DNA of 61,254 nt, taken from a virus. Lineage: Duplodnaviria; Caudoviricetes. Each line of letters starts with the position of its first letter. Positions within the stretch are counted from its first letter, which is position 1. The notes below the pieces were generated by a model. The model ran no database searches, was not told the DNA's origin, and saw nothing but the letters and a program-made list of their open reading frames with translations. Where the stretch lies: positions 1-61,254 of the IMG/VR virus record IMGVR_UViG_3300023440_000007; one strand, 5' to 3'. Shown one piece after another: positions 1,586 to 46,412 of the stretch. Made by a program: the position numbers and the translations under genes.

Positions 1586-1661
1586 TGGCCCTCCCTCTAG
1601 GATTCGAACCTAGAACCTACGGTTTAGAAGACCGTTGCTCTATCCATTGAGCTAAGGGAGG
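1586..1661 (-). tRNA. tRNA-Arg (anticodon TCT)
   Basis: Cloverleaf: acceptor CCTCCCT/AGGGAGG, anticodon arm ACGGT-CTTCTAA-ACCGT, T arm CTAGG-TTCGAAT-CCTAG, encoded CCA. Confidence 0.95.
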
Positions 1662-1903: not shown

Positions 1904-1979
1904 GGTGCCCGTCCTGGGACTCGAACCCAGACTTGCGAGATTTTAAGTCTCGCTCCTCTGCCAATTGGGATAGACGGGC
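1903..1979 (-). tRNA. tRNA-Leu (anticodon TAA), short variable loop
   Basis: Acceptor GCCCGTC/GACGGGC, anticodon arm CGAGA-CTTAAAA-TCTCG, T arm CTGGG-TTCGAGT-CCCAG, CCA. Confidence 0.9.
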
Positions 1980-4799: not shown

Positions 4800-5009
4800 T
4801 CAGGTTCTCGCTATGCGTCTATATAGATACCCTAGCCTATTCTGACCTGTAATGCGGTAGATCCTCCTGTAAATGCAATCCCAGTACTTTGGACCTTCCC
4901 TGGAAAAGTCGGGAACGAATGGAGAATAGATCACTCCTTCCCCTAAATAGATTGGACAAAGACTAGGACTCTTCCTGAGCCTATCGTCTAGAGGCTTGAA
5001 TTTTATCAT
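4800..5009 (-). CDS. EG-x2-YW paralog family protein
   Basis: SPFVPDFSREGPKYWDCI. Confidence 0.75.
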   Translation of the reverse strand: MIKFKPLDDRLRKSPSLCPIYLGEGVIYSPFVPDFSREGPKYWDCIYRRIYRITGQNRLGYLYRRIART

Positions 5010-5056
5010 AGAGTCACTGCTTCAACGCTCTGACTTATTGAATAGATCTGTCCAGC

Positions 5057-5386
5057 TCAATCCCCAGAACTCTTCCCCTTATCATCCTTTTTCTGTTGTT
5101 GTCGAACTTCACCAATGACCCAGAACGATGACCAGTGACACGTGAATCTGTTGAATGCGACACAGTGATAGGCTTTATAGCCGTCTTTTGCGACATATTC
5201 TTTCCAAAACCTTATCTCATTGACTTTCTTGAACAAATCTTGTTTAATTTCAACATCTTCTACATATCTGAATTTATACGGTTCAAGCCAGATCCAATAC
5301 TCTCCTATCTTCACTGGAATCACAGCGTATCTATGTATGTATTCCTGTCTAGTAGACCTCTTCTTTACTTCAGCCTTGAATCTCAT
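5057..5386 (-). CDS. Hypothetical protein
   Basis: 109 aa, overlaps its neighbour in the operon. Confidence 0.65.
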   Translation of the reverse strand: MRFKAEVKKRSTRQEYIHRYAVIPVKIGEYWIWLEPYKFRYVEDVEIKQDLFKKVNEIRFWKEYVAKDGYKAYHCVAFNRFTCHWSSFWVIGEVRQQQKKDDKGKSSGD

Positions 5387-5600
5387 CTCTCATTCCCAAG
5401 AGCCTATGAATCCTCCAATACACATCAGACCAATATTCACTGCCTTCTCTGAACCTGCATACTCCGACCAGAGCTATCCAGTTTATGTAGCCACATGCAT
5501 CAAATCTGTGAGAATCGACGTACTGAGCAAGGTCTTCATCTTGACTGTAGAATCTATATTCAGAATACCCAGATTCATTTATTTCCATTATCCACTTCAT
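5370..5600 (-). CDS. EG-x2-YW paralog family protein (WRIHR subgroup)
   Basis: FREGSEYWSDVYWRIHR. Confidence 0.75.
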   Translation of the reverse strand: MKWIMEINESGYSEYRFYSQDEDLAQYVDSHRFDACGYINWIALVGVCRFREGSEYWSDVYWRIHRLLGMRDEIQG

Positions 5601-5793
5601 TCAAGAGCCTGTGAATCCTCCAGAATACTTCAAGCCAGTATTCCCATCCTTCTCTGAATTTCTCATATCCTACCGCCGCTATCCATTCTGCATATTCACA
5701 TCTCTCATATCTGTTCTTTTTGACGTATTCATCCAACTCCGCATCATTGGAATGCGGATCATATAGAGCAGATCCAGTTTTTACCCACTTCAT
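5575..5793 (-). CDS. EG-x2-YW paralog family protein (WRIHR subgroup)
   Basis: FREGWEYWLEVFWRIHR. Confidence 0.75.
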   Translation of the reverse strand: MKWVKTGSALYDPHSNDAELDEYVKKNRYERCEYAEWIAAVGYEKFREGWEYWLEVFWRIHRLLNEVDNGNK

Positions 5794-5844
5794 TTATAAG
5801 ATATATTCTCTAGATCTATGTCCTAGGATAATATTTTACAGAAC

Positions 5845-6730
5845 TCAGAATATTTCCATAAAGGATTTTATGAACTCTACTGCGACCTGCGGCACGATCG
5901 CGTTCCCATAGGCGCGCAGTCGTCCCACTCGGTTGGGTATCCCATGAGCCAGCGGGAATGAGCCGGGTTCAATACGTCTCGCTTTTCCGTCTCTGCACCA
6001 TACGAGTTCGTACTCGTCCCAGAAACCAGAGTTACTTGCATACTTAGGGGTTTCCCTCTTCTTTGTTTCCAGCGTCTCTGATTGAATTCGTCCGATGCCT
6101 TCTCGCTTTTGTAGTCTCTTGCCGTTGGCGTCGCCCAACCGCTCAGATCTATTAAATGAACTATGTCTTCTACTGACCATTGTCTCTTCTTTTTGCTTAG
6201 ATCCCTCTTCCTGCCTGTTTCTGTAGCGCAGGGAGTCGGCCACCCACCAAAGCCTTTGTCGGATGTGCGGCGCGCCGACGCTCGCAGCGCAGATATCTGC
6301 GGTCCCGACGGCATATCCCATCTTTTCCAAGTCAGAGCGTACTCTAGAGCCATACCCTTCCATCCTTCGAAGCAACCTGCTCTCCAAACACCGTTGGAGG
6401 TTTGCACTCAAGTATGATCTGTTTCCATACCGGCCATAGATGCCTTGGGTCTTTCTCAGCTTGTCGCTTCCCTGCGGCCGAGAACGGCTGACAAGGACAT
6501 GATCCTGTCCATACTTTCTTTCCTTCAGGCCATCCAGCAATTTCAAGCGCATAGGCCCATCCTCCTATCCCAGCAAAGAAGTGGCATTGAACATAATCAT
6601 CAAGAGCTCCAACATCTATGTCTTCTATACTCCTATTGTCTATATATCCTTCTTGTATGAGCCCTTCCTTCATCAAATTCTCAAGCCATCTACACACATA
6701 CGGATCATTGTCATTGTAATACGCAGCCAT
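5845..6730 (-). pseudogene. C5-cytosine DNA methyltransferase (two-polypeptide, overlapping-frame type) broken by a 2-nt frameshift at ~6347
   Basis: Motif I FFAGIGG, IV SCPCQPFS and VI EQV in 6344..6730; VIII HIRQRLW and [11 protein letters not shown] in 5845..6552; motif IX-like [13 protein letters not shown] in overlapping frame 5877..6407. Confidence 0.8.
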
Positions 6731-6876
6731 TGTTCAATGTCTAATCCCAATGATTACTCATTGCGTACATATTAGCCATAAATTCTCAGACTTGAGGAAA
6801 TATCTTATAGAAGAGTCTAGCACTTGAGCAATTGTATATGGAGTAAACAGTATAGGCTGGAGTCTCAGGTATATAG

Positions 6877-7002
6877 TCTCAGATCCAAGGATTCAATTCT
6901 CAAGCCTAATCTCAGATCCAAAATTTGTGTGATGGAATTTTTGTATTCTTAGTATGTGGAGTTCAATGAGTAGAGTTCTTGGTGTCAAGATCTCAGATCC
7001 AA
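6877..7002 (+). repeat. Three direct copies of TCTCAGATCCAA
   Basis: Copies at 6877, 6910 and 6991, just before the compositional switch at 7030. Confidence 0.8.
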
Positions 7003-7232
7003 AAATTTCATGAGGGGATTTTTGGGTGACCCAGGGTGTGCCAGTGCGCGCAATGCGCGCATAACCCGCCCCCCGTACCACCTATAGGCGCATAGGCCAT
7101 TGCTGCGCCTACAAGCCGCGTACACGCGCACTAGGCATTGTGCAGTACCTAGTACCGCACCAGGCCACAACGCGCACCACGCGCGCTTGTAGGGGCGTTG
7201 TGGCCATACCTAGCAGGCATGGTACAGGCACA

Positions 7233-7265
7233 ACAAAACCCCCGCGCCTACATGGTGCGGGGGCT
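7233..7265 (-). terminator. Intrinsic terminator of the 7362-7793 gene
   Basis: AAAA-CCCCCGCGCC-TACAT-GGTGCGGGGG hairpin, U-tract on the minus strand. Confidence 0.7.
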
Positions 7266-7361
7266 TGGTTTGGGTTTGGCCCGCTTACTTATGCGGGCCG
7301 GTTTGCCTTACCACTAGGCGCGCACGCCACCTAGTGGCAAGGGGCGCGCAGCATGCTAGCG

Positions 7362-7793
7362 TTACTTGTTGTAACGCTTAGCAAGCGCAGCATACACCGC
7401 GCGCGCCGCCGCTATAGTAGCGGCCAAGCTGGGCGCGGGCATACCGGGCTTGCACGCAGGCGCGTGCTTGGCCACCAGTTTAGTGGCCGCAGCAACATGC
7501 TGCGGGGCCACAAACACGGCATGGCCATGCTTGTGGTACCAGCTAAACTGGTGCCGCACGCCTGCGGCACGCCAGGCACCCTGCATAGTGGCCATAGTAG
7601 CACCGCTATGCTGCGCCAACAAACGCCCCTTTAACTGGGCGCCTGCGGCACGGTAAGGGTACCCCGGGCAAGCGCACACAACACAGTGTGCGCCCGCCTT
7701 GGGCGCTTGGGCGCTTGGCACGCCAGGCCAGGCCGCCGCAGCGGCCATAGTGGCGTAAAAAGCGCCAGGCGTGGTAGGTGCCTGCATGGGCAC
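7362..7793 (-). CDS. Early-island protein with no Asp or Glu (143 aa, Ala-rich, basic)
   Basis: GCAAGGGGG RBS shared with the neighbouring cassettes, own terminator downstream, TAA stop; no D or E in the translation. Confidence 0.7.
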   Translation of the reverse strand: MPMQAPTTPGAFYATMAAAAAWPGVPSAQAPKAGAHCVVCACPGYPYRAAGAQLKGRLLAQHSGATMATMQGAWRAAGVRHQFSWYHKHGHAVFVAPQHVAAATKLVAKHAPACKPGMPAPSLAATIAAARAVYAALAKRYNK

Positions 7794-7970
7794 AACCCCC
7801 TTGCCAATTAGTGCGCGCCGCCCCGCACCAGGCCTGGCCGCCCCGCGCGGCCAGTAAGTACACTACCACAACTACGCGCGCGTAGGCGCGCAATGTTTGC
7901 ATACCAGCCATGCAACAAACGCATACCACCTGCGGGTGTAACACACGAAAACGCAATACAACCCACAGTT

Positions 7971-8083
7971 GCACAACCACAGGTTGTGCGCCACACAACC
8001 AAAACACGTGCATACTTGCATAGGTTTGCAAGTATGCAAATGCGTCTCTCACAACTTGCGTATGTGCATAGGTTTGCAAGTAA
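7971..8083. repeat. Cluster of inverted and direct repeats
   Basis: GCACAACC-ACA-GGTTGTGC; TGCATACTTGCA-TAGGTT-TGCAAGTATGCA; GCATAGGTTTGCAAGTA twice. Confidence 0.7.
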
Positions 8084-8431
8084 GCAAGCGTGCAAGTGGG
8101 CGCAGACGCGCCGTTGACCCGACGCTTGTGTGACCGCTGGATGATTTGGACCTAGTGTGAACACTGGATGACTGAGCGCTTGTGAACTCGCTGGACGGTT
8201 CTCTCTTCTACGCTGAAGATGCCGTGAGTGAAGAGTTCCTCCTCTTCATCATCAAAGAAGATGAAGAGACATGAAGAACTCGTCTTCATCTTCTTTGATG
8301 AAGAACTCACGCACTGGAGTTAGGGTCAAATTTTTTGACAATGAACTTGTGATTCCGCTGGATGATTTGGATCAATATATATGACTAAGAGCTTGTGACT
8401 CTGCTGGATCATCTTCTTTGATACTGTACGG

Positions 8432-8464
8432 CAAAAGGGTAGCGGACTGACTGCCCGCTACCCC
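8432..8464 (-). terminator. Intrinsic terminator
   Basis: CAAAA-GGGTAGCGG...CCGCTACCC. Confidence 0.75.
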
Positions 8465-8470
8465 TGCGGC

Positions 8471-8770
8471 TTAGGAGTCCAGCGCCGTAACCTGGTAAGT
8501 CACAGGCGGCTGAGCGTACTGCCTAACCTGTTCGAGCGTGAGCTCCTTGCCACGCAAGTTGGGCGGCAGGTTAAGCGGAATCTCCGTAACCTTGGTGGCA
8601 AGCGCTGCCAAGTGCAGCGGGAGGACGCCAATAACGTGCTTACCGGCGATCTCCCTGGCAGGATCCGTCACGTGCATAATGCACGCAACGGTGCCCTGGT
8701 CGTCAATAAGCCCCAGCTCCTTAATGTACGAGAGCAGGGCCGGATGGCGTGTAACGATGACCTTTTCCAT
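8471..8770 (-). CDS. Csx16-like (Cas_VVA1548 family) protein; candidate anti-type III CRISPR ring nuclease
   Basis: VTRHPA...VIGVLPLHLAA...LNLPPNLRGKELT matches the Csx16 pattern SRHPGA...VIGTLPVHLAA...LDLP..LRG.ELS; no cas operon in the window. Confidence 0.75.
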   Translation of the reverse strand: MEKVIVTRHPALLSYIKELGLIDDQGTVACIMHVTDPAREIAGKHVIGVLPLHLAALATKVTEIPLNLPPNLRGKELTLEQVRQYAQPPVTYQVTALDS

Positions 8771-8778
8771 CTTTGTTA

Positions 8779-8849
8779 CCCCTTGCTAGTTGCTAGGCGG
8801 TATTGCCTAGTGTTTGCAGCGTAGTAGGGCAGACTGTCAAACGCAAATC
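8779..8849 (-). promoter_or_regulatory. Early cassette promoter, 5' hairpin and RBS
   Basis: GAT-TTGCGT-17 nt (GAcagTC)-TACGCT; hairpin CTAGGC/GCCTAG; CTAGCAAGGGG. Confidence 0.85.
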
Positions 8850-9116
8850 CAAAGTGCATCAGTCGAAAAGAAGATGCATCTGAGGAGGCATCATCAAACA
8901 GGAAGACGTGTCTGAGGAGGCATCATCATCTTTGAAAATGAGATCAGAGAAGCTGACTTGGGTCAAATTTTTTGATAGGACGCTTGTGAAATCGCTGGAT
9001 CAATTCGATTGACTGGGTCAATATATATGACTGAGGACTAGTGTGAGCGCTGGATCATCTTCACGGATGCTGGCGGGCAGCAGTAAGGGGGCCAGGATCC
9101 TGGCCCCCTTAGTGGC

Positions 9117-9365
9117 TTAAGCCGTAAAGCCGGTTTCGATCCCGCCCCCGTACTTACGGCAAAAAGCCACGATCCGCAGCTGCCGCTTGGGCATAACGGC
9201 AACCGCGCGGTTACCGAAGACCGTGTGGTTGTGGTAGGCCCACACGGCGTCGACGATCTGCTGCGGCTTAAAGCCAAGCAGCAGGCCGCGAACGAACGAT
9301 GACAGCGGCAGGGTAACGCCCTGCCAGCTGATCCAAGTACCATGCCTGGTAATTTCGATCTTCAT
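9117..9365 (-). CDS. Early cassette hypothetical protein
   Basis: 82 aa; shared promoter/RBS; terminator hairpin ~9086-9110. Confidence 0.8.
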   Translation of the reverse strand: MKIEITRHGTWISWQGVTLPLSSFVRGLLLGFKPQQIVDAVWAYHNHTVFGNRAVAVMPKRQLRIVAFCRKYGGGIETGFTA

Positions 9366-9373
9366 AGCATTTA

Positions 9374-9448
9374 CCCCTTGCTAGTTTTGGGCAGCACCAT
9401 TGCTGCCCATGTTGCCAGCATGGCAGGGTGGATTTTCCATTGCAAATC
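9374..9448 (-). promoter_or_regulatory. Early cassette promoter, 5' hairpin and RBS
   Basis: GAT-TTGCAA-17 nt (GAaaaTC)-CATGCT; CTAGCAAGGGG. Confidence 0.85.
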
Positions 9449-9776
9449 CTTTATGTATCCGTCAACAAAGAAGACAGCGCCTCAGACGCATCATAAGGAA
9501 GGAAGAAGTTAGAGTTGCATTCATCTTCTATGATGAAGATAACTCGAATAGGAGGCTGAATCATCTTTGAAGATGACATCATGCGAATTGAACAGACTCA
9601 AAATATCTGACTGTGAACTAATGATTCTATTGGATGATTTCGGTCAAATTGTATGAGAGAAGGCTAGTATGACTGCTGGATGATTTGGATCAACACATAT
9701 GAACTAGAGCTTATCCATTCGCTGGATGGTTTCCTCAAAAAGTGTTGGGGCCTACCTGGCCCCATAGTCAAGCCAA

Positions 9777-10325
9777 CTACTTGTTGGCGTAAATCGGCAA
9801 CTGCACGTTGCCGGGTCGTCTGTATTTGTACTGCGTTACGGCAGCCAGCATCCTGTAGGCGCAAGCCGTAACCTTAAGCGGGTCAGCGGCGGCAAGGCGG
9901 GCCGGTCCAACCAGGGCCTTGGCCAGCTCAATATGCTGCCGCTTAACCCAAATGGCGGCGGTCAAAGCAAGGCCGTCAATGCAAACGGCCACGTCGCCAA
10001 ACGGCTTGGCCCAATCAGGGGCCTGTCGTTCCGGGTTATTGTCTCCCCAAAACAGCGTAAGGCCGTCGTCCACGCTGGCAACATGCTGCAAAGCCGTGCT
10101 GTACAGCTTGCGCATGTCATCGTAGGGCAGGTCAAATGCCCCAAGCGCGTGGTCAATAACCTGCGTGGGCAGGTCGTAGGCATTGCCATACACCCACACA
10201 GGGTACAGGTCTTCCTGGCGGGCAATAATGGCAAAATCGCCAAACACGCCGCCGTAGCCGTCGTCGTCCCCGTTGGGCACGTACGCGGCCAAGTCATCGT
10301 ACAAGCTGGTTGTGTTGTTGGTCAT
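9777..10325 (-). CDS. Early cassette hypothetical protein
   Basis: 182 aa; shared promoter/RBS; terminator ~9737-9765. Confidence 0.85.
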   Translation of the reverse strand: MTNNTTSLYDDLAAYVPNGDDDGYGGVFGDFAIIARQEDLYPVWVYGNAYDLPTQVIDHALGAFDLPYDDMRKLYSTALQHVASVDDGLTLFWGDNNPERQAPDWAKPFGDVAVCIDGLALTAAIWVKRQHIELAKALVGPARLAAADPLKVTACAYRMLAAVTQYKYRRPGNVQLPIYANK

Positions 10326-10332
10326 CGCTAAA

Positions 10333-10402
10333 CCCCTTGCTAGTGCTGTGGCCCCATTGCCACAGTACCCACACTAATAGGGCTGATAATCAAACACAAA
10401 TC
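10333..10402 (-). promoter_or_regulatory. Early cassette promoter, 5' hairpin and RBS
   Basis: GAT-TTGTGT-17 nt (GAttaTC)-TAGTGT; CTAGCAAGGGG. Confidence 0.85.
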
Positions 10403-10686
10403 TAAAATGCATCTATCCCATTGGAAGATAACACGAAAAGGGCGTTGAATCTTCTTTGAAGAAGATGCCTCTATGCGTACCTCATCATCTTTGATGGGGA
10501 TGCTTATTCACACTTCATCTTCTTTGATGAAGATTTGGCGTCTAGTTTGTCTTGTTATAAGAGGATGAGCTTGTATGACCGCTGGATGATTTGGATCAAT
10601 ATATATGATAGGAAGCTTGTGATTCCGCTGGATGATTTGGATAGCCAAAAAGAAGGGGCAGGCTTTGATGCCTACCCCAAACAAGC

Positions 10687-11109
10687 CTAGATATACGGCC
10701 GACCATCCCCGCCTGGGCCTACCATGCCGTACAGCCCATTAGCGACGAAGGCGCAAGCCTTAGCCAACGACTTTTTGTTAACGGTGGAGCAGAACACCCT
10801 GCTGCCTACCTGGATAGTGCTGGAACACACCCTTACGCCACACAGATCTACATACCGTATGGCAAAACTAAAGTGCGCATGCGGAACTACGGCGAAGTAG
10901 CCCACATTGACCAACACCTTAAACCGCTGTATGACGTTCTCCACCTGCTGATACTCACCATTTACCAAATGCGTACCAGCAGTGAAGCGTTCCAGATCCG
11001 CCAGCTTTAGCCAGCCAACCCGACTGAGGACCTGGCACAAAACCGGCAGTTTGCTGGGATCGTCGCTGTGAGTAACCACGCACAGCGCATACAGGTTACG
11101 ATTTTCCAT
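10687..11109 (-). CDS. Early cassette hypothetical protein
   Basis: 140 aa; shared promoter/RBS; terminator ~10647-10678. Confidence 0.8.
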   Translation of the reverse strand: MENRNLYALCVVTHSDDPSKLPVLCQVLSRVGWLKLADLERFTAGTHLVNGEYQQVENVIQRFKVLVNVGYFAVVPHAHFSFAIRYVDLCGVRVCSSTIQVGSRVFCSTVNKKSLAKACAFVANGLYGMVGPGGDGRPYI

Positions 11110-11118
11110 AGTTTTTTA

Positions 11119-11187
11119 CCCCTTGCTAGTGTTATGGCACCATTGCCATAGTAACAGCCTAGTAGGGCTGAATATCAATAGCAAATC
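11119..11187 (-). promoter_or_regulatory. Early cassette promoter, 5' hairpin and RBS
   Basis: GAT-TTGCTA-17 nt (GAtatTC)-TAGGCT; CTAGCAAGGGG. Confidence 0.85.
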
Positions 11188-11347
11188 ATAAATACTTCAG
11201 TCAATTAAGACTCAAAGGCCGCTTCGAGTTATCTTCATCGTAGACGAAGAACAATACTCTACCGCAATCATCCACGTAGAAGAGACATACAGTCAAAAAG
11301 AAGGGGCGAGTTTTGATACTCACCCCAAGTTGCCTAGCAGGGGGAAG

Positions 11348-11458
11348 CTAGTACAGGAACTTGGCGGTAGCGATAATGCCCACGCCGAACACACCGCCAA
11401 GAATCAGAGACCCTATGGCTGCCAGGCCGAGGATAATTGCGGCTTCGAGCTTATGCAT
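11348..11458 (-). CDS. 36-aa membrane peptide (below the ORF-track cutoff)
   Basis: MHKLEAAIILGLAAIGSLILGGVFGVGIIATAKFLY; start overlaps the stop of 11451..11828; terminator ~11295-11326. Confidence 0.65.
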   Translation of the reverse strand: MHKLEAAIILGLAAIGSLILGGVFGVGIIATAKFLY

Positions 11459-11828
11459 GGTTTAACGCCTCCTTAGCGCGCTTGATGGTATCGCCGTACA
11501 GGGAGGCCAGCGCATTGTACAGCAGGAGCGACATGGCATAGTGCGGTTCCATGCCGATGCTGTGCGCTTGGCTGTGGACAGCCGCTGGCCACGAGCTGCT
11601 AAGCAGGTCGTCGACGCGCTGCACATCCCTGGGGTGAATGAACACAACCTTGCCTTCGTACAAGGCCGTGGTGCTGTCGAGCTCGTGGTCCCACACAGGC
11701 CCAAGGATTACACGGTGGGTGCATCCCGCAGCCTTGAGGTCGTCCACGGTTGCCTGCCCATCAGCCGCCAGGCGGTATGCCCGATAGACGGGCTGGGCAA
11801 GCTTCAGCATATCCTGAATGTCTTGCAT
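11451..11828 (-). CDS. Early cassette hypothetical protein
   Basis: 125 aa; shared promoter/RBS. Confidence 0.8.
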   Translation of the reverse strand: MQDIQDMLKLAQPVYRAYRLAADGQATVDDLKAAGCTHRVILGPVWDHELDSTTALYEGKVVFIHPRDVQRVDDLLSSSWPAAVHSQAHSIGMEPHYAMSLLLYNALASLYGDTIKRAKEALNHA

Positions 11829-11836
11829 TGCTTAAT

Positions 11837-11906
11837 CCCCTTTGCTAGTTGCATGGCTTGCTTGCCATGTTGCCAGCATGGCAAAGGTGATTATCAAACG
11901 CAAATC
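11837..11906 (-). promoter_or_regulatory. Early cassette promoter, 5' hairpin and RBS
   Basis: GAT-TTGCGT-17 nt (GAtaaTC)-CATGCT; CTAGCAAAGGGG. Confidence 0.85.
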
Positions 11907-12080
11907 TAAAGTGCGTCAGTCGCAGCGGAAGAGAAACCCTCGTGGCTGGTCGTCTTTGATGAGGATAACTCGAATAGCGGGTTGAATCATCTTTGAAGAG
12001 AAGCTGCGAGGCGGCATCGTCTTCTTGGATACCTCGAAACAAAAAGAACCCCGGCCTACCTGGCCGGGGATTTTGCTTGG

Positions 12081-12545
12081 CTACGTGCCAAGACGCCAGC
12101 CCAACAGCGCGCCGTAGACGGCGGCGGCAAGCTGGGCCGACGGAACCGTACCCTGCAGCGCACCAGCCAAGGACTGGGCGGCGCTGCGGTCCTGCTTGCG
12201 CGGGAACACGGCGCAGTAGTACATCAGTTCGTTAACCGCCGGGCCGTAGTCCTGCTCGAAGTTGGGCAGCAGGTTTTCCATTTCCCGCATGGCCAACACA
12301 AAGTCGTCTTTGTTGTTGGCCATAAAGCCGCGCAGGTTTGCCCAAGTATCCTGCACGCTTCCCGTGCTGCACTCAGCAAGCGCAGCAACAAAAGCGGCCA
12401 GGTCATCCGGCAACGGCTTAGCGGAAAACACCCAAACCGGGACCGGACCAACCTGCTGCATCAACTTAGGCCAGCCCGGCCAATCAGGGTGCATGTTGTC
12501 GTTACGCACCCTAAGGATTTCGCTGTAGTACTGGTAAGCATCCAT
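12081..12545 (-). CDS. Early cassette hypothetical protein
   Basis: 154 aa; shared promoter/RBS; terminator ~12041-12070. Confidence 0.85.
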   Translation of the reverse strand: MDAYQYYSEILRVRNDNMHPDWPGWPKLMQQVGPVPVWVFSAKPLPDDLAAFVAALAECSTGSVQDTWANLRGFMANNKDDFVLAMREMENLLPNFEQDYGPAVNELMYYCAVFPRKQDRSAAQSLAGALQGTVPSAQLAAAVYGALLGWRLGT

Positions 12546-12553
12546 TGGTTAAT

Positions 12554-12624
12554 CCCCTTGCTAGTTGCTAAGCACCATTGCTTAGTGTGCCCATGCTAGT
12601 AAGGGGGACTTTCAAAGGCAAATC
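12554..12624 (-). promoter_or_regulatory. Early cassette promoter, 5' hairpin and RBS
   Basis: GAT-TTGCCT-17 nt (GAaagTC)-TAGCAT; CTAGCAAGGGG. Confidence 0.85.
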
Positions 12625-13052
12625 CAAAGTGCATCAGTCAGGCCGGACTCAAAACAGCTCTGCTGGCTCATCTTTTGCGAGTCACAGCGCCATTCGAGTT
12701 ATCATCATCTATGATGAGGAACAGTACTCTGCTGCAATCATCAGTCCTGATTCATTAGCCTATTCGAGTTATCTTCATCGTAGACGAAGACAAGTGAGTG
12801 CAAATCTTCTTCGCTGAAGAGGATAACTCGAATAGCGGTTTGAATCATCTTTGATGAGGCAATCATCTTCATGATGATGAAATGCCTGGCAAGCTCATCT
12901 TATATGAGATAGAGCTTATGAATCCGCTGGATGATTTGGTCCTAGCGTGTGAACTAGAGCTTATGGATTTGCTGGATCAATTGGATAGACATATACCGTC
13001 AAAAAGATGGGCGGGGCATTGAGCCCCGCCCGATGGCCGCCTGGCAAGGGGT

Positions 13053-13601
13053 TCAGGCAGCCGCGTCGCTGGCCTGCTCGTTAACGAGCACCGGCACCGG
13101 CGGTGTGGACTCGGCCTTGGGCTTGGCCTCCTCCTTGGGCTTCTCCTTGGGCGTAATGGCGTCGACCAGGGCCTCATAAAAGCCCATGAACGCCTGCTTC
13201 CTAGCCGCCTCGAAGTTGGCCCGGAAGCTGGTAGCCTCGCCCTGGAACTTCTTGCGCCCCACCTTCAGCGCCCCGTCACTGCCGATGGACACGGCGTAAC
13301 GCTTGGCAAACTGAAGCGCCTTGCGCGTGTGGGTGGGATGGACCAGCGCCACGAAGCAGTTCTTGTAGTGCCAGGACAAGCCCCACCTGTCGCGCGGGAC
13401 GCTGCGCTTGCTGAACGCCTGGTTCAGCTCCCCCACGGTCTTGCCGGGGTTGTGGGTAATCACGTCCCACTTGACCGGGGCCGTGTCCCCACGGGGATTG
13501 TAACCCTCTCCCACCAGGGGGATGGCCACCGCGCAGCCCGCGTTGAGCATGCCACGGTAGCTGTTCTTCAACTCGCTGGCCTTGTAATAGGTATCACGCA
13601 T
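13053..13601 (-). CDS. Early cassette protein; possible DNA-binding domain related to the C-terminus of 42681..43400
   Basis: YNPRGDTA..KW....GKTVGEL....LSW....FVAL; AAGGAGG RBS; terminator ~13001-13031. Confidence 0.8.
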   Translation of the reverse strand: MRDTYYKASELKNSYRGMLNAGCAVAIPLVGEGYNPRGDTAPVKWDVITHNPGKTVGELNQAFSKRSVPRDRWGLSWHYKNCFVALVHPTHTRKALQFAKRYAVSIGSDGALKVGRKKFQGEATSFRANFEAARKQAFMGFYEALVDAITPKEKPKEEAKPKAESTPPVPVLVNEQASDAAA

Positions 13602-13657
13602 TGTTTCCTCCTTTGCTGCTAGATGCGCGGCACTAACTGCACCGCCCTATGGTTTGC

Positions 13658-13689
13658 AGCATGGCAGGGTTGATTGTCAGTTGCAAATC
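13658..13689 (-). promoter_or_regulatory. Early cassette promoter
   Basis: GAT-TTGCAA-17 nt (GAcaaTC)-CATGCT. Confidence 0.85.
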
Positions 13690-14327
13690 TAAAATGGCTG
13701 CATTTTTGTGAGGTGGGACGGCTCATCAACCTTGAGTCAAACCGCTATTCGAGTTATCTTCATCGTAGAGGAAGAACACAGCCCTATATATTATATAAAG
13801 TGCGCCAATTCGTCAAAGCTGAGTCATTGGCCTATTCGAGTTATCCTCATCAAAGAGGACTCAAAGCCCTATTCGAGTTATCTTCTTCAATGAAGAACGT
13901 ACTCGTTTTGTTTCGGATCATCTTTTTTGATGATACCGCATCCTCATCATGATGAGGATCTATGGGAATGACACCCGACATTACGCTAGAGTATGAGCTT
14001 GCATATGAGCTGGATTGATTCAAAATATCTTCATTTTGAAGATGAACATGACGGTTTTTTGTCATTTTTCGGATTCACAAACTTCATCCAGCTAAGTCAT
14101 TGTAAAACAACAAAACACGATCGCGTGTCTCAAGCGGGGCAGACGTCGTTTTTGGACCGTGTTTCATCTTCATCCATGACGCTTTTGAATCATAAAATCT
14201 TCCTCATGAAGAAGACATTCCACACTTGAACCGGAATCCATGGAATGATGCCAGAGGTTTTGTATGAAAGTGAGCTAATATGACCGCTGGATGAGCCTGT
14301 ACACTCCCATACTTTAGACCCAAAAAA

Positions 14328-14365
14328 GACTTGCATGTGAAATTCCACCATGTAAGGGTTATAAT
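14328..14365 (+). promoter_or_regulatory. Divergent promoter of the same class
   Basis: GAC-TTGCAT-17 nt (GAaatTC)-AAGGGT, immediately followed by TATAAT. Confidence 0.65.
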
Positions 14366-14367
14366 GC

Positions 14368-14735
14368 TGGCGCGGCATATGCGTCAGGGCCTAAAAGTCA
14401 ATGGTTCCATAGGAGTAACCATTGGCAGGACGACAGGGGTTATGCCCGGCCATAGAGAGCCTAGGGGGCCAGACGGGAGCGGTACTTGCCTTTGAGCAAG
14501 CAGCGCACGTCGCAGGGTAGCGGAAGCCTACAGCGAGGCGCACAACGTGGTCTGCGCCGGTAGAGCTGGATATGACCGCTAAGGAAAATTCCCTGGGTGG
14601 AATTCCCAGGGCCAGGGGCTGAGTAGCTGATATAGTGAAACCCCTGCGAGGACTGCGGAATACTCTGGTTTTACTCGGTATGCAGCAAGCCGGACGGTGT
14701 GATGAGCTGTAGGGATACAACCGCCCTGAAGGTCA
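14368..14735 (+). ncRNA. Candidate structured RNA (~360 nt)
   Basis: GC-rich, no credible + ORF; closing TCAGGGC/GCCCTGA; hairpins CAATGGTT/AACCATTG, CCCTGGG/CCCAGGG, GCGCA/TGCGC. Confidence 0.45.
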
Positions 14736-30078: not shown

Positions 30079-30086
30079 TATAATCA

Positions 30087-31125: not shown

Positions 31126-31135
31126 GAGAATCATT

Positions 31136-32379: not shown

Positions 32380-32381
32380 AC

Positions 32382-40690: not shown

Positions 40691-41245
40691 ATGTCAGTTA
40701 TGTCAGACACATGGATAAAAGACATGGTTATTAAGCACGATATGATCACGCCATTCATTGACCATCTTGTTAAAGATGGCTGTATATCGTATGGATTATC
40801 ATCGTATGGATATGATGTAAGAGTATCAAATCACTTCAAAATCTTCACTGACGTTGATTCTGTAATCGTCGATCCAAAAAAGTTTTCCGATAAGAGTTTC
40901 GTGAATAGGACATTGGAGGAGTGTATAATTCCTCCAAACAGCTTCGTCTTAGCGACTACGGTAGAATGGTTCAAGATACCGAGAGATGTGATGGCATTCT
41001 GCGTGGGCAAGTCTACATACGCAAGAATAGGCATCTCTGTCGGCTGTACCCCATTAGAGCCCGAATGGTCAGGACAGATAACTCTGGAATTGGCTAATAC
41101 CACACCGATTCCAGCAAAGGTCTATGCCAATGAGGGGATCGCACAAGTTATCTTCTTTAAGGCTGACAAGGAATGTTCTGTGTCCTATAAGGATCGTAAA
41201 GGGAAGTACATGAACCAGATAGGAGTAACTCCAGCAAAGATATAG
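40691..41245 (+). CDS. dcd: dCTP deaminase
   Basis: [43 protein letters not shown]. Confidence 0.95.
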
Positions 41246-43634: not shown

Positions 43635-44549
43635 ATGGGAGATTTAGGGGAACTGTGGTATGGCTTGGATGCGAACCAAGTCGTAAACTTCTTCTCCTTT
43701 ATAAGAGAAAGAGAGAACATACGCTTAAGAAGGCTTCGTAGACAGCCTTATCCATGGACAGAAGATCCAATCCTCTGTTCTTACAGGTTTACGAATGTAA
43801 AGAGGAAGCATGACAAGACTACGCAATGGGCTATAAAGAACTGGTATGAGCCAAATAAAGAAAATGAGAATTTAGGAGCGCAGTTCTTCAATTGCGCTGT
43901 GTTCAGATACTTTGGAACTATAGAGTTCGCAAAAAGATATGGCTGGAGCGAGAGCTTCTATCCCCAAAAAGCCATAAAAGTTGTAGAACAGCTCAGAGCA
44001 GAAGGAAAGCCTGCTTTCACAAGCGCTTATGTAATAACGAACTCTGGGATAAAGGCTCCAAAAGAGGAAGTTGTAGCCAACAACTTCCTAATGCCCCTCT
44101 TTGTCAAGAGGGAGGAAGTTGTCGAGATAGCCCAAGATACCAAGTCTTGGAAAGCCGTGTTTGAATACCTAAAAGAGTTTGAAGGATTTGGAGGTACTGG
44201 CTTCATGGCCAAAGAAGTACTCCAAGACACTATGTTCACTGCCGTATTGCAAGACTGTATAGATGCTGATACATGGTCCCCATGCGGACCAGGAGCTACT
44301 CGCGGCATAGAAATTCTTTTAGGAGAGCACGACTTTAATGCAGATGCGAAAAAGAGGATCAAGGGACTCACAGAATCTAAGAAGCTTTCGATAATGAAGT
44401 ATCTTAGGATGCTGTCCCTACACGGATTTTGGCCTAAGAGATGGGAGCCTCTCACTGTCCATGATATTCAATTTTCATTGTGTGAGTTTGCGAAGTATAT
44501 GCGGATTAAGAATGGGTGTAGAGCAAAGAGAAAATACCATCCAACATGA
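43635..44549 (+). CDS. aGPT-Pplase1 / 5-hmdU DNA kinase helical-domain family protein (thymidine hypermodification)
   Basis: F..ERE.IR..R....PWTEDPIL..YRFTNV.R..D; GFMAKEV..D; GPGA.RG; IQFSLCEF.KY. Confidence 0.85.
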   Translation: MGDLGELWYGLDANQVVNFFSFIRERENIRLRRLRRQPYPWTEDPILCSYRFTNVKRKHDKTTQWAIKNWYEPNKENENLGAQFFNCAVFRYFGTIEFAKRYGWSESFYPQKAIKVVEQLRAEGKPAFTSAYVITNSGIKAPKEEVVANNFLMPLFVKREEVVEIAQDTKSWKAVFEYLKEFEGFGGTGFMAKEVLQDTMFTAVLQDCIDADTWSPCGPGATRGIEILLGEHDFNADAKKRIKGLTESKKLSIMKYLRMLSLHGFWPKRWEPLTVHDIQFSLCEFAKYMRIKNGCRAKRKYHPT

Positions 44550-45364
44550 AGTTCTTCAAGCCTCTGAAAGAAGACTTCTGCCTATTTATTCCAACGTGCA
44601 GAAGACCCAATAGACAGATCACAGCAACAAGGCTGCTACAGGCTAGCATACCATTTAATGTCGTCGTACAAGGCCGTGAGGCGACCGCATACGACTACTT
44701 TAGGGAGCAGGGAGTGCCTGTCATCGTACTGCCGTGGTGGGTATGTGATCTCTCTGATACATGGCAGTGGCTATTAGAAAATACCCCGACAAGATACTTC
44801 ATGTGTATGGATGACGACTTGTACCTCTTCAGGAGGGAGCCAGACAGTGTAAAGCTCCACATAGCTTCAGATGAAGACATAAAACAGATGTTTGATACTC
44901 TTTATGGTTGGATGAAAGAAGGAGTAGTCCATGTCGGAGTATCTATGAGAGAAGGCAATAATAGGTATCCAGACCCATATTACGAAAACATGAGGATGTG
45001 CAGGGCGACTGGATATGATTCTGAAGTGGTTAGAAGCCTTGGAGTGAAGTTCAATAGAGTTATTTGTAGAGCAGACTTTCACATGACTCTAGAATTATTG
45101 AAAAGGGGTTATAAAAACAGAGTATTATTTGAATTTGCTACTAATCAACCTGGCAGCAATACTGATGGTGGATGCAGCAGCTACAGATCTGACGAAGTGC
45201 TAGAAGAAAATGCCATACTCTTAGCGAAGATGCATCATCCGTATGTTAAAGTCGTAGAAAAAGTAACCAAAACTGCTTGGAATAGCAGGCCGAGAAAGGA
45301 CGTAATCGTCTATTGGAAAAAAGCCTTCAGAGATTCTCAGAAGAATCAAAATGATAGTCATTAA
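44546..45364 (+). CDS. GT-A glycosyltransferase, TET/JBP-associated (GREB1-like) type
   Basis: IPT..R, MDDD, DFHMTLELL..GY.N, GSNTDGGCSSYR; sits inside the modification cluster. Confidence 0.75.
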   Translation: MKFFKPLKEDFCLFIPTCRRPNRQITATRLLQASIPFNVVVQGREATAYDYFREQGVPVIVLPWWVCDLSDTWQWLLENTPTRYFMCMDDDLYLFRREPDSVKLHIASDEDIKQMFDTLYGWMKEGVVHVGVSMREGNNRYPDPYYENMRMCRATGYDSEVVRSLGVKFNRVICRADFHMTLELLKRGYKNRVLFEFATNQPGSNTDGGCSSYRSDEVLEENAILLAKMHHPYVKVVEKVTKTAWNSRPRKDVIVYWKKAFRDSQKNQNDSH

Positions 45365-46412
45365 TTGCAGAAATGTAAGCGAGTCGCTTGCCAGGGGTAT
45401 AGACATGCTCCTGACAGAAGGAGTAGTGCATAAGAGCAGAGCAGGGGATGTTGTGGTATATCCAACCCCTGTGACGACCATATTCAGAAAGCCTACAGAG
45501 AGAGTACTTCTTTATGAAGAAAGAGACGCAAATCCTTTCTTCCATATATTCGAAGCTCTGTGGATGTTGGCAGGTAGAAATGATGTCTCATACGTGAAGA
45601 AATATGTCAAGACTATAGAAAAATACAGCGATGATGGCATTACATTCAACGGAGCCTATGGATACAGATGGAGAAGAGCATTTGGATTTGACCAAATAGA
45701 AAAGATAGTCCAATTGTTAAAGAATTGTCCGAATACAAGGAGGGCCGTATTGCAGATGTGGTTTCCTCCTCTTGACTTGTTTGAGGATGAGGACAATGCG
45801 AGCCTTGATGTATGTTGCAATACGGCTGTCTATTTCTGGATGAGCAGTGATGGACTGAACATAACCGTAACCAACAGATCCAATGACATAATATGGGGAC
45901 TTTATGGTTCAAATGCTGTCCATTTCAGTATCTTGCAGGAGTATGTAGCTAGTCGTATAGGAGCACAAGTAGGCAAATATTATCATATCAGTAATAATTA
46001 TCATGCATATCTAGATATTCTTGACAAGTGTGCCCCGATAAGAATCCATGCTCCAGATCCATATAGAACAGTAGAAAGAAATCCCTACTTAGGGGACAAT
46101 AGAATCCAATGTTATCCTCTTGTCTCCGATTCAGAACACTTTATGGAAGACCTTAACCATTTCATGGGAGACGAATTTGATTATCCCTATAAGAACAAGT
46201 TCTTTAGGGAGGTAGTCATACCACTAGAGAAAGGACATAGATATTTCAAGAACAAGAAGGATCCAGATAGGTTTGACAAGGCACTAGTAGAAATTGCTAA
46301 ATGCAAAGCTTCTGACTGGAAGACAGCCGCTGAGGAGTGGATAATAAGGAGGAGGGATCGTGCAAAAAGAGTTCAAACAGATAATAGAGAGACTAGCAAA
46401 ACAGGACGTTGA
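45351..46412 (+). CDS. Thymidylate-synthase-fold enzyme, probably dUMP hydroxymethylase
   Basis: ANPFFH..E.LWMLAGRND, GAYGYRWR, TRRAVL, CN, NRSND..WG...N (Asn suggests a dUMP substrate), HAY. Confidence 0.85.
   Translation: MIVINCRNVSESLARGIDMLLTEGVVHKSRAGDVVVYPTPVTTIFRKPTERVLLYEERDANPFFHIFEALWMLAGRNDVSYVKKYVKTIEKYSDDGITFNGAYGYRWRRAFGFDQIEKIVQLLKNCPNTRRAVLQMWFPPLDLFEDEDNASLDVCCNTAVYFWMSSDGLNITVTNRSNDIIWGLYGSNAVHFSILQEYVASRIGAQVGKYYHISNNYHAYLDILDKCAPIRIHAPDPYRTVERNPYLGDNRIQCYPLVSDSEHFMEDLNHFMGDEFDYPYKNKFFREVVIPLEKGHRYFKNKKDPDRFDKALVEIAKCKASDWKTAAEEWIIRRRDRAKRVQTDNRETSKTGR

What the first reader, a model, noticed from the sequence alone, without database searches (positions are those of the whole stretch)
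7030..7946. 917 bp with zero GA/TC dinucleotides, containing a gene whose protein has no Asp or Glu
Seen: there is no GA and no TC between 7030 and 7946, and only one GA up to 8044. My rough estimate is ~100 expected for this composition, and the rest of the genome is visibly GA/TC-rich. The embedded ORF 7362..7793 has the island's shared RBS and its own terminator, yet has no D/E (GAN codons) and a TAA stop, so the constraint overrides protein composition. Inference: the DNA must stay free of a mark or lesion placed at TC/GA. One candidate is the phage's own thymidine hypermodification, so that the first-expressed gene can be read by unassisted host RNAP or the genome end can be processed. 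The other is a host defence acting on TC-containing motifs; DarT2 ADP-ribosylates T in TNTC/TCTC, but avoiding every TC is stricter than that would need. I know of no description of this, but novelty is unchecked.
Basis: partly seen in the sequence, partly recalled or inferred. Interest (0 to 1): 0.95.

Follow-up and report, generated by a model that had tools for sequence, protein, structure and literature searches.

The report
Phage gene purged of GA/TC dinucleotides
A phage that chemically decorates its thymines carries a block of probably early genes whose transcribed parts avoid the dinucleotide TC/GA on both strands, and one whole gene has none at all, so its protein has no aspartate or glutamate.

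Summary
No GA or TC occurs at 7029-7946 (0 against about 104 expected; minimum 68 in 20,000 shuffles), and only 4 occur up to 8104. It is not an assembly artefact: an independent 72x contig spans 5000-9541 without a difference, and a second sample holds identical pieces.

ORF 7362-7787(-) looks like a real gene. It uses the island's codon preferences (0 of 4308 simulated ORFs score as well), has a similar RBS and its own terminator, and is a distant paralogue of island gene 13053-13601, which has normal Asp/Glu.

The zero is the extreme of a wider pattern. The nine ORFs with the lowest GA/TC are the contiguous genes 7362-14720. Their seven 5'UTRs hold 5 GA/TC against 53 expected, starting just after the -10 element. 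Promoters and spacers are GA/TC-rich.

The phage encodes a 5-hmdU DNA kinase, a DNA glycosyltransferase and a dUMP-hydroxymethylase-like enzyme. Published restriction data point to T-G/T-C specificity for such hypermodification.

Best reading (about 0.45): TC is this phage's hypermodification context, purged from units that must be transcribed from modified virion DNA. None of this is shown chemically, and no relatives with the cassette were found. The protein's function is unknown.

The parts
7029..7946 (.). Core zone with no GA and no TC on either strand (918 nt, GC 0.64)
7947..8104 (.). Extension of the purged zone with only 4 sites (GA at 7947; TC at 8045, 8047, 8049). It holds three hairpins on the - strand, each followed by a T-run (8038-8009, 7987-7958, 7947-7920). 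The 263-nt leader 8050-7788 folds with z = -2.9.
7362..7787 (-). ORF141: 141 aa, ATG start, TAA stop, no Asp or Glu, 28% Ala, 14 Lys+Arg and 8 His. It is an orphan except for weak paralogy to g7.
   Evidence: Codon-usage score +0.031 against simulated -0.311 +/- 0.071; 0 of 4308 simulated ORFs reach it. Position-specific composition matches the island genes. BLASTP to 13053-13601 gives E 2e-5. No Pfam or PHROG match. The only hit among 5.8 billion proteins is the protein itself.
7797..7805 (-). RBS-like GCAAGGGGG, 9 nt before the ATG. It resembles the island's shared CTAGCAAGGGG.
7239..7263 (.). GC-rich hairpin with T-runs on both sides (bidirectional terminator-like), behind ORF141. Further hairpins lie at 7276-7301 and about 7307-7343.
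7030..7135 (-). Second 5'UTR-like element inside the purged zone. It has a hairpin with a GCAATGG loop (7086-7110), a G-run and an ATG at 7062. The 24-codon ORF runs out of the zone. Possibly vestigial.
   Evidence: read by eye; not statistically supported
8106..14720 (-). Island of cassettes (genes 8471-8770, 9117-9365, 9777-10325, 10687-11109, 11451-11828, 12081-12545, 13053-13601, 14391-14720). In seven of them (all but 14391-14720) I found a sigma70-like promoter, a 5'UTR of about 60 nt and the shared RBS. Most are followed by a terminator-like hairpin. Transcribed parts are GA/TC-poor and spacers are GA/TC-rich.
13053..13601 (-). g7, the paralogue of ORF141, with ordinary Asp/Glu and GA/TC content
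43635..44549 (+). 5-hmdU DNA kinase (HMUDK_hel, E 2e-45)
44546..45364 (+). DNA glycosyltransferase-like protein (Pfam TAGT 3e-7; phrog_842 2e-36)
45351..46412 (+). Thymidylate-synthase homologue, 47% identical to YuA gp17, which is annotated as putative dUMP hydroxymethyltransferase
40691..41245 (+). dCTP deaminase/dUTPase-like enzyme (nucleotide-pool step)

Best explanation
TC (GA on the other strand) is the sequence context in which this phage converts 5-hydroxymethyl-dU into a bulky hypermodified thymidine after replication. A block of host-polymerase-read genes, probably early ones (7030-14720, - strand), must be transcribed from the fully modified DNA that enters the cell. Selection has therefore removed TC from both strands of their transcribed parts. 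Removal is nearly complete where sequence is free to change (5'UTRs) and partial in coding sequence (synonymous sites, codon junctions, fewer Asp/Glu). It is total in one cassette, ORF141, whose protein was remodelled to do without Asp, Glu and TCN-Ser.

Shown: the depletion pattern, its restriction to transcription units, its strand symmetry, the coding nature of ORF141, and the presence of the modification genes.

Inferred: that TC is the modified context, that modification hinders the host polymerase on these units, that the island is early, and what ORF141 does. My guess for ORF141 is a very basic nucleic-acid-binding regulator, but no fold or family supports that.
For: 1. Strand symmetry.
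- GA and TC are both absent at 7029-7946.
- Both are depleted on the sense strand of island transcription units: GA 0.64, TC 0.52; these are the two lowest of 16 dinucleotides.
- Two arbitrary RNA dinucleotides would rarely be reverse complements, so a duplex-DNA-level cause is favoured.

2. Restriction to transcription units.
- The nine ORFs with the lowest GA/TC o/e, out of 84 scored, are exactly the contiguous genes 7362-14720 (0.00-0.79). The next is 0.84 and the rest are 0.93 or higher.
- Seven 5'UTRs hold 5 GA/TC against 52.8 expected in 436 nt, and 4 of the 7 have none. The 43-nt promoter blocks just upstream hold 42 against 32.9.
- Spacers have o/e 1.26 and 1.33. The 60-nt map shows the alternation.

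3. Selection at silent sites.
- Codon junctions in island genes: GA 28 against 81.2 expected; TC 23 against 44.7.
- NTY codons end in T 79 times and in C 57 times, while other NNY codons give 74 and 202 (OR 3.8, p 1.5e-9). This runs against the island's high GC3.
- AGA 1 of 50 Arg, GGA 5 of 68 Gly, AGC 23 of 42 Ser. Asp+Glu is 9.6% against 14.5% in core genes.

4. The phage encodes a 5-hmdU DNA kinase, a DNA glycosyltransferase-like protein, a TS homologue 47% identical to YuA's putative dUMP hydroxymethylase, and a dCTP-deaminase-like enzyme.

5. Literature.
- hmdU is converted in sequence-specific contexts (PMC8989533 and PMC5889632, passages).
- Restriction-resistant sites of M6, ViI and phiW-14 share TG/TC, and the kinase is proposed to prefer T followed by G or C (PMC6449724, passages).
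- 5-HMUDK phosphorylation of an hmU template cut E. coli RNAP output to 37% of natural DNA and 10% of hmU DNA (PMC6457204, passages).
- Bulky major-groove groups block bacterial RNAP (PMC4838386, abstract).

6. Three PolA relatives without the kinase or the TS-like gene (0 of 3) have no dinucleotide-free zone.

7. Features consistent with early genes. The island promoters are sigma70-like. Island genes do not use the codons served by the phage's own tRNAs (AGA 1 of 50, TTA 1 of 92, against 189 of 372 and 54 of 408 in core genes). One island gene is in a Cas_VVA1548 family.
Against: - No chemical or sequencing evidence shows that TC is the modified context here. The published TS inference rests on restriction resistance, includes TG, and TG/CA is enriched (o/e about 1.5) in the purged zone.
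- The island promoters keep an invariant GA and TC inside the -10-like element (TTGAnAnTC), and promoter blocks are GA/TC-rich. The one paper on bulky groups attributes inhibition mainly to initiation (PMC4838386, abstract). On that basis one would expect promoters to be purged before transcribed DNA.
- YuA, an M6-like hypermodifying phage, shows no motif-free zone in its first 50 kb.
- GA/TC enrichment of the core genome is not evidence for the model. Relatives without the modification genes show the same enrichment (o/e 1.21), the same junction excess and the same NTC preference.
- No sigma70-like or island-type promoter was found in front of ORF141, so how and when it is transcribed is unknown.
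- Early timing is inferred, not observed. No RNA data exist.
- The polarity could be reversed, with TC being the one context left unmodified.
Confidence: 0.45

Rival explanations
1. A host defence enzyme that acts on DNA at TC selects against TC on both strands of heavily transcribed early genes, because damage there blocks the first anti-defence transcripts. Candidates include a thymidine ADP-ribosyltransferase of the DarT type, a TC-specific cytosine deaminase, or a glycosylase or nickase that recognises the hypermodified base. ORF141 would be the gene that must get through under attack.
For: The strand symmetry and restriction to transcription units are the same as for the best explanation. 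The island carries a likely anti-defence gene, Cas_VVA1548 family. Csx16 proteins are cA4 ring nucleases (bioRxiv 10.1101/2024.09.24.614671, passages); the equation of Pfam Cas_VVA1548 with Csx16 is recalled, not from a call. Promoters need not be purged if only opened or transcribed DNA is attacked.
Against: No such TC-wide enzyme was identified here. Known DarT motifs (recalled) are longer than TC. An enzyme acting on the exposed non-template strand should purge only sense-strand TC, yet sense GA is purged at least as strongly (junction o/e 0.34 against 0.51). Damage elsewhere in the genome would still kill the phage.
Confidence: 0.18
2. The polarity is reversed. TC is the one context in which hmdU is reduced to plain thymidine, or otherwise left unprotected. 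Purged units are then fully hypermodified and so maximally shielded from host nucleases or DNA-binding proteins.
For: Papers state that hmdU becomes either hypermodified or canonical T depending on sequence context (PMC8989533, passages). The sequence pattern alone cannot give the sign.
Against: It does not explain why shielding should start just after the -10 element and stop at spacers. A cut anywhere in the genome is lethal, so local shielding buys little. The TS contexts inferred in three other phages are the resistant, modified ones (PMC6449724).
Confidence: 0.1
3. Selection acts on the RNA. Early transcripts avoid GA and UC because one or two endoribonucleases cut there, either host abortive-infection or CRISPR-associated HEPN RNases or a phage host-shutoff RNase.
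For: The purge begins just after the -10 element, where the transcript should start, and covers UTRs and CDS but not promoters or spacers. The island encodes a protein of a CRISPR-associated family.
Against: The two avoided dinucleotides are exact reverse complements, which an RNA-level cause does not predict. Five of the seven hairpins behind the cassettes contain TC or GA in loop or stem (read by eye). No RNase with GA plus UC specificity is known to me (recalled). The zone beside ORF141 extends across terminator-like hairpins on both sides.
Confidence: 0.08
4. Nothing functional: a chimeric assembly, foreign DNA of odd composition, or a spurious ORF in a stop-poor GC-rich stretch.
For: Long open frames are expected here by chance: 77% of simulated sequences have an open stretch of at least 120 codons. 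ORF141 has no homologue outside this phage.
Against: An independent contig at 72x spans both borders, and a second sample has identical sequence. The ORF's codon score is beaten by 0 of 4308 simulated ORFs. It has the island's RBS type, a similar UTR hairpin and a paralogue in the island. A count of 0 against 104 expected cannot arise from composition.
Confidence: 0.03

Closest known systems
Thymidine-hypermodifying phages (M6/YuA, ViI, phiW-14, SP10, PaMx11) with the 5-hmdU DNA kinase pathway
   Same: The window has a TS-family hydroxymethylase homologue (47% identity to YuA gp17), a 5-HMUDK (Pfam 2e-45) and a nucleotide-pool enzyme. The literature describes partial, sequence-context-dependent modification with a proposed T-G/T-C preference.
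   Different: The kinase is at most 33% identical to any isolate's. A glycosyltransferase-like gene sits beside it, and I did not find the amino-acid transferase that follows the kinase in the characterised pathways. No motif-free gene or island is reported for those phages, and none was seen in YuA's first 50 kb.
Restriction-site or motif avoidance in DNA that must act before protection is in place (for example the first-step-transfer region of T5 lacking EcoRI sites, or leading regions of T7 and plasmids). All recalled; not checked in a call.
   Same: A local absence of a short sequence motif on both strands in early-acting DNA, explained by selection against an enzyme that acts at that motif.
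   Different: Here the motif is a dinucleotide. The purge is bounded by transcription units rather than by an entry segment, reaches zero over 918 nt, and remodels a protein's amino-acid content. The suspected enzyme is the phage's own. Position relative to the entering genome end is unknown.
Dinucleotide-specific phage DNA modification (DpdA dPreQ0 at GA in phages iggy and CAjan; GpC-specific C5-MT/TET/glycosyltransferase systems)
   Same: These show that phage modification enzymes can have dinucleotide specificity, including GA (PMC10484667 and PMC8256090, passages).
   Different: No TGT/DpdA family match in the window (the contig is 61% complete). No Tet_JBP match (but that search rang in no control). 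In the passages I read, those papers do not describe motif-purged genes.
Artificial switching of bacterial transcription by major-groove chemistry on hmU (Hocek and Krasny laboratories)
   Same: Gives the mechanistic precedent. hmU templates are transcribed well. Phosphorylation by 5-HMUDK or bulky groups shuts E. coli RNAP down (PMC6457204 passages, PMC4838386 abstract).
   Different: These are in vitro systems with fully substituted templates, and the effect is ascribed mainly to initiation. No natural genome design exploiting it is described there.

Membership tests
Thymidine-hypermodifying phage (5-hmdU / 5-HMUDK pathway) | dUMP hydroxymethylase (thymidylate-synthase homologue) | tested here: met
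   Pfam Thymidylat_synt 8e-22, phrog_5131 2e-115, and 47% identity (E 2e-109) to YuA gp17, annotated as putative deoxyuridylate hydroxymethyltransferase. The HMMs do not separate hydroxymethylase from methylase activity.
Thymidine-hypermodifying phage (5-hmdU / 5-HMUDK pathway) | 5-hmdU DNA kinase | tested here: met
   PF18723 HMUDK_hel, E 2e-45, covering 270 of 281 profile positions.
Thymidine-hypermodifying phage (5-hmdU / 5-HMUDK pathway) | Transferase that replaces the (pyro)phosphate (aGPT-Pplase/AADT) and tailoring enzymes | tested here: inconclusive
   No such family was hit among the neighbours scanned. A glycosyltransferase-like gene lies next to the kinase. The contig is 61% complete.
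Thymidine-hypermodifying phage (5-hmdU / 5-HMUDK pathway) | Hypermodified thymidine present in virion DNA, in a defined context | not testable with these tools
   Needs LC-MS or long-read kinetics of virion DNA.
7-deazaguanine (DpdA) phages with a GA motif | DpdA/TGT-family transglycosylase | tested here: not met
   PF01702: 0 matches in the window, while all 14 control genomes rang. The missing 39% of the genome is not covered.
First-entering-DNA motif avoidance (T5 FST-like) | The purged segment lies at the genome end that enters first | not testable with these tools
   The record is linear with no terminal repeats and 61% complete. The physical ends are unknown.
Winged-helix/HTH DNA-binding proteins (my guess for ORF141 and g7) | Recognisable HTH fold or family match | tested here: not met
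   No Pfam or PHROG match. PDB profile search: best E 0.07. AF2 models have pLDDT 68.6 and 59.6. Foldseek against pdb and viral libraries: no hit with E below 0.69.
Sigma70-type early transcription units | -35/-10 elements at proper spacing, own terminator, expression before replication | tested here: inconclusive
   Seven island cassettes share cTGACt-18-GAtAaT-like elements, and most are followed by terminator-like hairpins. ORF141 has none of these promoter elements. Timing was not testable.

The most novel reading that the evidence does not exclude
A phage writes its transcription programme into the distribution of its own DNA-hypermodification dinucleotide. Units that must be read from virion DNA by the unaided host polymerase are purged of TC on both strands. 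One gene goes as far as evolving a protein without Asp or Glu. Promoters keep an invariant GA...TC in the -10 element and spacers are TC-dense, so the modification state of the DNA itself would act as an epigenetic timer or insulator. If so, motif-free islands could be used to read off the sequence specificity of unknown DNA-modification systems directly from genomes.
Probability: 0.25. Interest if true: 0.92.

Novelty: new variant of a known kind. Interest (0 to 1): 0.85.

Why it matters
Sequence specificity. The motifs of thymidine hypermodification were still called unknown in the 2018 paper I read (PMC5889632), and only a restriction-based inference was found since (PMC6449724). If the purge marks the modified context, this genome gives the specificity (T before C) by inspection, and it gives a testable kinase and glycosyltransferase pair.

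Cost of hypermodification. The pattern would show that hypermodification has a cost for transcription which phages pay for by recoding early genes. That is a constraint on phage genome evolution and on engineering modified phages.

Protein evolution. ORF141 is a natural experiment on a restricted codon set: no GAN, TCN, NTC, NGA or TGA codons and no G|A or T|C junctions. It is a folded-looking 141-aa protein without acidic residues.

Method. Scanning viral contigs for kilobase-scale dinucleotide-free windows could become a way to find and type DNA-modification systems.

Tried and rejected
Relatives of ORF141
- IMG/VR scan: none.
- 5.8-billion-protein search: only the protein itself.
- ESM Atlas: only itself, with unrelated ACT-like structural neighbours at TM 0.51 or lower.

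Relatives of g7
- Word-indexed search: only itself.
- Exhaustive phmmer: one 96-aa protein, P0003, at E 1.8e-4.
- P0003 and the three-sequence profile found no locus in viral or metagenome contigs.
- So no homologous cassette from another phage could be compared.

Other relatives
- Neighbours: 9777-10325 gave nothing. 8471-8770 gave two unrelated contigs without long GA/TC gaps.
- The kinase gave one 34%-identical locus without gaps.
- DNA similarity to isolate phages: none for 6700-8300 or 30000-37500.
- An IMG/VR search with the promoter consensus gave 2 hits that lack every other island motif. I count them as chance.

RNA families and folds
- Rfam: only sub-threshold hits, for example sraL at 27 bits against a gathering score of 39. 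tRNAs occur only at 1586-1979.
- Fold searches for ORF141 and g7: nothing significant.
- RNAalifold on the 5'UTRs gave a weak consensus (-4.5 kcal/mol). The GCAATGG-loop hairpin is therefore reported only as seen by eye.

Rejected ideas
- C-to-T hypermutation of TC: TT and AA are not inflated (32 and 37 against 23 and 36 expected).
- General restriction-site avoidance: the zone visibly contains many GCGC, CGCG, GGCC, CTAG and CATG palindromes (read).
- PAM avoidance: targeting elsewhere would still kill the phage.
- UV photoproduct avoidance: TT is not reduced, and CT and CC are only mildly below expectation.
- Host-like codon usage: GC3-rich usage predicts NTC over NTT, the opposite of what is seen.
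- I first took the GA/TC excess of the core genome as selection for modification sites. I dropped this after relatives without the modification genes showed the same excess.

Expression and literature
- No RNA holder was listed for the stretch.
- Literature searches listed no paper describing a dinucleotide-free gene or motif-purged early units. This covers only the held library, judged from titles, abstracts and the passages cited.
The supplementary tables of PMC6449724 and the SI of PMC5889632 and PMC8989533 may hold more on motif specificity.
Full report
OBSERVATION

The window is a complete IMG/VR viral record of 61,254 bp. It is linear and CheckV rates it 61% complete.

- Between 7028 and 7947 there is no GA and no TC, a gap of 919. 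The next longest GA/TC gap in the window is 98 and lies directly beside it.
- Base composition predicts 104 GA+TC in the segment. In 20,000 shuffles the mean was 104.7, sd 8.0 and minimum 68.
- For the nine other strand-symmetric dinucleotide classes the longest gap is at most 13.4 times the mean spacing. For GA/TC it is 142 times.
- Up to 8104 there are only four sites.
- The segment has 64% GC in a genome of about 42-44%.

It is not an assembly artefact. An independently built contig from run X1 (7621 nt, depth 72) covers 5000-9541 with no difference. A second sample of the same study, X2, yields contigs over 7454-8056 and 8065-8452, also with no difference. X1 may be the source sample, so only X2 is partly independent.

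IS THE ORF A GENE?

Open frames are cheap here, because TGA cannot occur and TAA/TAG are rare. In simulation, 77% of sequences of this composition had an open stretch of at least 120 codons.

Four things nevertheless mark 7362-7787(-) as coding:
- Its position-specific composition (G1 0.42, A3 0.07) matches the neighbouring island genes. Overlapping frames do not.
- Scored with island codon preferences restricted to permitted codons, it reaches +0.031. Simulated ORFs give -0.311 +/- 0.071, and 0 of 4308 reach the observed score. All eight other frames tested in the zone fall between -0.19 and -0.53.
- It has a GCAAGGGGG run 9 nt before an ATG, close to the island's shared CTAGCAAGGGG. It is followed by a GC hairpin and a T-run.
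- It aligns with island gene g7 (13053-13601): 25% identity over 71 residues, pairwise E 2e-5. Both align with the one outside relative found for g7, P0003 (E 1.8e-4).

g7 and P0003 have ordinary Asp/Glu. At their acidic positions ORF141 has Ala, Thr, Gln, Arg or His. The protein has 141 residues: 40 Ala, 14 Lys+Arg, 8 His, and no Asp or Glu. The acid-free state is therefore derived.

The function of the protein is unknown:
- No Pfam or PHROG family.
- No PDB sequence match.
- AF2 models of moderate confidence: pLDDT 68.6 and pTM 0.66 for ORF141; 59.6 for g7.
- No significant Foldseek match.

THE ZERO IS THE EXTREME OF AN ISLAND-WIDE PATTERN

From 8106 to 14720 the - strand carries a row of cassettes.
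- Seven share a conserved upstream block, GACTGATGCAyTTTrGATTTGCnnTTGAnAnTC. I read it as a sigma70-like -35/-10 pair, cTGACt-18-GAtAaT.
- This is followed by a 5'UTR of about 60 nt and the RBS.
- The promoter motif occurs 8 times in the window, all in the island; shuffles give a mean of 0.86.

GA/TC by ORF. Among 84 ORFs scored, the nine with the lowest GA/TC o/e are exactly the contiguous genes 7362-14720 (0.00-0.79). The next is 0.84 and lies at the island's edge. All others are 0.93 or higher.

Alternation inside the island. GA/TC density is low in each UTR+CDS and high in each spacer.
- Transcription units, sense strand: GA 0.64, TC 0.52.
- Spacers: 1.26 and 1.33.
- Core genome: 1.28 and 1.32.

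The switch is sharp. From the base after the -10 element to the ATG, the seven UTRs hold 5 GA/TC against 52.8 expected in 436 nt, and four UTRs have none. The 43-nt promoter blocks just upstream hold 42 against 32.9.

Inside the coding sequences the depletion sits where it is free.
- Codon junctions: GA 28 against 81, TC 23 against 45.
- AGA 1 of 50 Arg, GGA 5 of 68 Gly, AGC 23 of 42 Ser.
- NTY codons prefer T (79:57) although all other NNY codons prefer C (74:202). OR 3.8, p 1.5e-9.
- Amino-acid content shifts in the same direction. Asp+Glu is 9.6% in the island and 14.5% in core genes. Ala is 11.7% in the island, 4.9% in core genes and 28% in ORF141.

WHAT KIND OF PHAGE THIS IS

The window encodes:
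- a 5-hmdU DNA kinase (PF18723, 2e-45);
- next to it a DNA glycosyltransferase-like protein (TAGT 3e-7; phrog_842 2e-36);
- then a thymidylate-synthase homologue 47% identical to YuA gp17, which is annotated as putative dUMP hydroxymethyltransferase;
- a dCTP-deaminase-like enzyme and a family A polymerase with a UDG-like domain.

No TGT/DpdA match was found. The sequences come from microbial-mat metagenomes.

FROM THE LITERATURE
- Such phages replace T by hmdU during replication. They then convert it, in sequence-specific contexts, to a hypermodified base or back to T (PMC8989533 and PMC5889632, passages).
- The restriction-resistant sites of M6, ViI and phiW-14 share TG/TC. The authors propose that the kinase prefers T followed by G or C (PMC6449724, passages).
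- In vitro, hmU templates are transcribed well by E. coli RNAP. After 5-HMUDK phosphorylation, output falls to 37% of natural DNA and 10% of hmU DNA (PMC6457204, passages).
- Bulky major-groove groups block bacterial RNAPs (PMC4838386, abstract).

INTERPRETATION

Two facts narrow the cause.
- The avoided pair is self-complementary as a pair. This points to duplex DNA or to both DNA strands, not to RNA.
- The avoidance is bounded by transcription units.

My best reading is as follows. TC is the context in which this phage hypermodifies thymidine. Units that must be transcribed from the modified DNA that enters the cell have been purged of it, and ORF141 is the case where the need was absolute.

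Three features fit an early role for the island: it has host-type promoters, it does not depend on the codons served by the phage's own tRNA-Arg(TCT) and tRNA-Leu(TAA), and it carries a gene of a CRISPR-associated family. Timing was not observed.

I give this reading about 0.45.

WHAT SPEAKS AGAINST IT
- Nothing chemical is known for this phage.
- The published TS inference includes TG, which is enriched in the purged zone.
- The island promoters keep an invariant GA and TC in the -10-like element and are GA/TC-rich. The one relevant paper places the inhibition mainly at initiation.
- ORF141 has no recognisable promoter. It is preceded by three terminator-like hairpins in a strongly folding leader, z = -2.9.
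- YuA shows no such zone.
- The GA/TC excess of the core genome is generic. Three PolA relatives (36-37% identity) lack the kinase and the TS-like gene. They show the same excess but have no dinucleotide-free zone.

RIVALS
- A host enzyme acting at TC on transcribed DNA (0.18).
- Reversed polarity, with TC as the unmodified context (0.10).
- RNA-level avoidance of GA- and UC-cutting RNases (0.08).
- Artefact or spurious ORF (0.03).

COMPARISON AND NOVELTY

The gene set places the phage among the thymidine hypermodifiers. The phenomenon works like restriction-site avoidance in early-acting DNA. It differs in four ways:
- the motif is a dinucleotide;
- the bounds are transcription units;
- it reaches zero over 918 nt;
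- it reshapes a protein.

Four literature searches listed nothing that describes this. I rate it a new variant of a known kind, of high interest.

The comparison that would have tested conservation could not be made, because no phage with a homologous cassette was found.

Noticed in passing
window 5845-6730 (-): A C5 DNA methyltransferase (phrog_363) is split over two overlapping frames. 6344-6730 carries the N-terminal half and 5845-6552 the C-terminal half. This may be a frameshift, a sequencing error or a broken gene. Reads of other organisms pile up on its conserved motifs.
   Followed up: partly
window 8471-8770 (-): Island gene g1 matches Pfam Cas_VVA1548 (E 4e-18). If this family is Csx16 (recalled), it would be a phage-borne cA4 ring nuclease, that is, an anti-type-III-CRISPR candidate. 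Csx16 activity is described in bioRxiv 10.1101/2024.09.24.614671.
   Followed up: partly
window 8106-14400, spacers between cassettes: The spacers are built from several repeat families. These include a 23-nt near-palindrome TTCATCTTCTTTGATGAAGA (12 copies), a GCTTGTG..CCGCTGGATGATTTGGATCAATATATATGA module (6-8 copies) and GAGGATAACTCGAATAGCGG (6 copies). All are GA/TC-dense and their function is unknown.
   Followed up: no
window, about 25-45 nt upstream of the start codons of island genes (e.g. 8795-8812, 10345-10364): The 5'UTRs carry a short hairpin with differing stems and a conserved GCAATGG-type loop. A similar one lies at 7086-7110 inside the purged zone. RNAalifold on the MAFFT alignment did not recover it.
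   Followed up: partly
window 1586-1661 and 1903-1979 (-): tRNA-Arg(TCT) and tRNA-Leu(TAA). Core genes use AGA for 189 of 372 Arg codons and ATA for 247 of 410 Ile codons. Island genes use AGA once in 50 Arg codons.
   Followed up: partly
window 6870-7024: Three copies of TCTCAGATCCAA. Two of them lie within a 35-nt repeat that ends in a CCAAAAAT...ATTTTTGG hairpin, directly at the left border of the purged zone.
   Followed up: no
window 14328-14349 (+) and 27876-27886 (-): One island-type promoter motif points the other way at the island's far edge. One perfect copy of the island RBS motif CTAGCAAGGGG lies far outside the island.
   Followed up: no
window 46662-49193 (+): Family A DNA polymerase with an N-terminal UDG-superfamily domain and a 3'-5' exonuclease domain.
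   Followed up: no
window 60668-61162 (-): A protein with an Mtd_N domain, the major tropism determinant N-terminus known from diversity-generating retroelement targets (E 3e-15). No reverse transcriptase was looked for.
   Followed up: no
G001 (L011) about 12447-12900; G002 about 56580-56900; G003 about 60600-60930: The PolA relatives have short stretches lacking several AT-containing dinucleotides at once (for example no TA for 446 nt). These look like GC-rich or low-complexity tracts, not single-dinucleotide purges.
   Followed up: no
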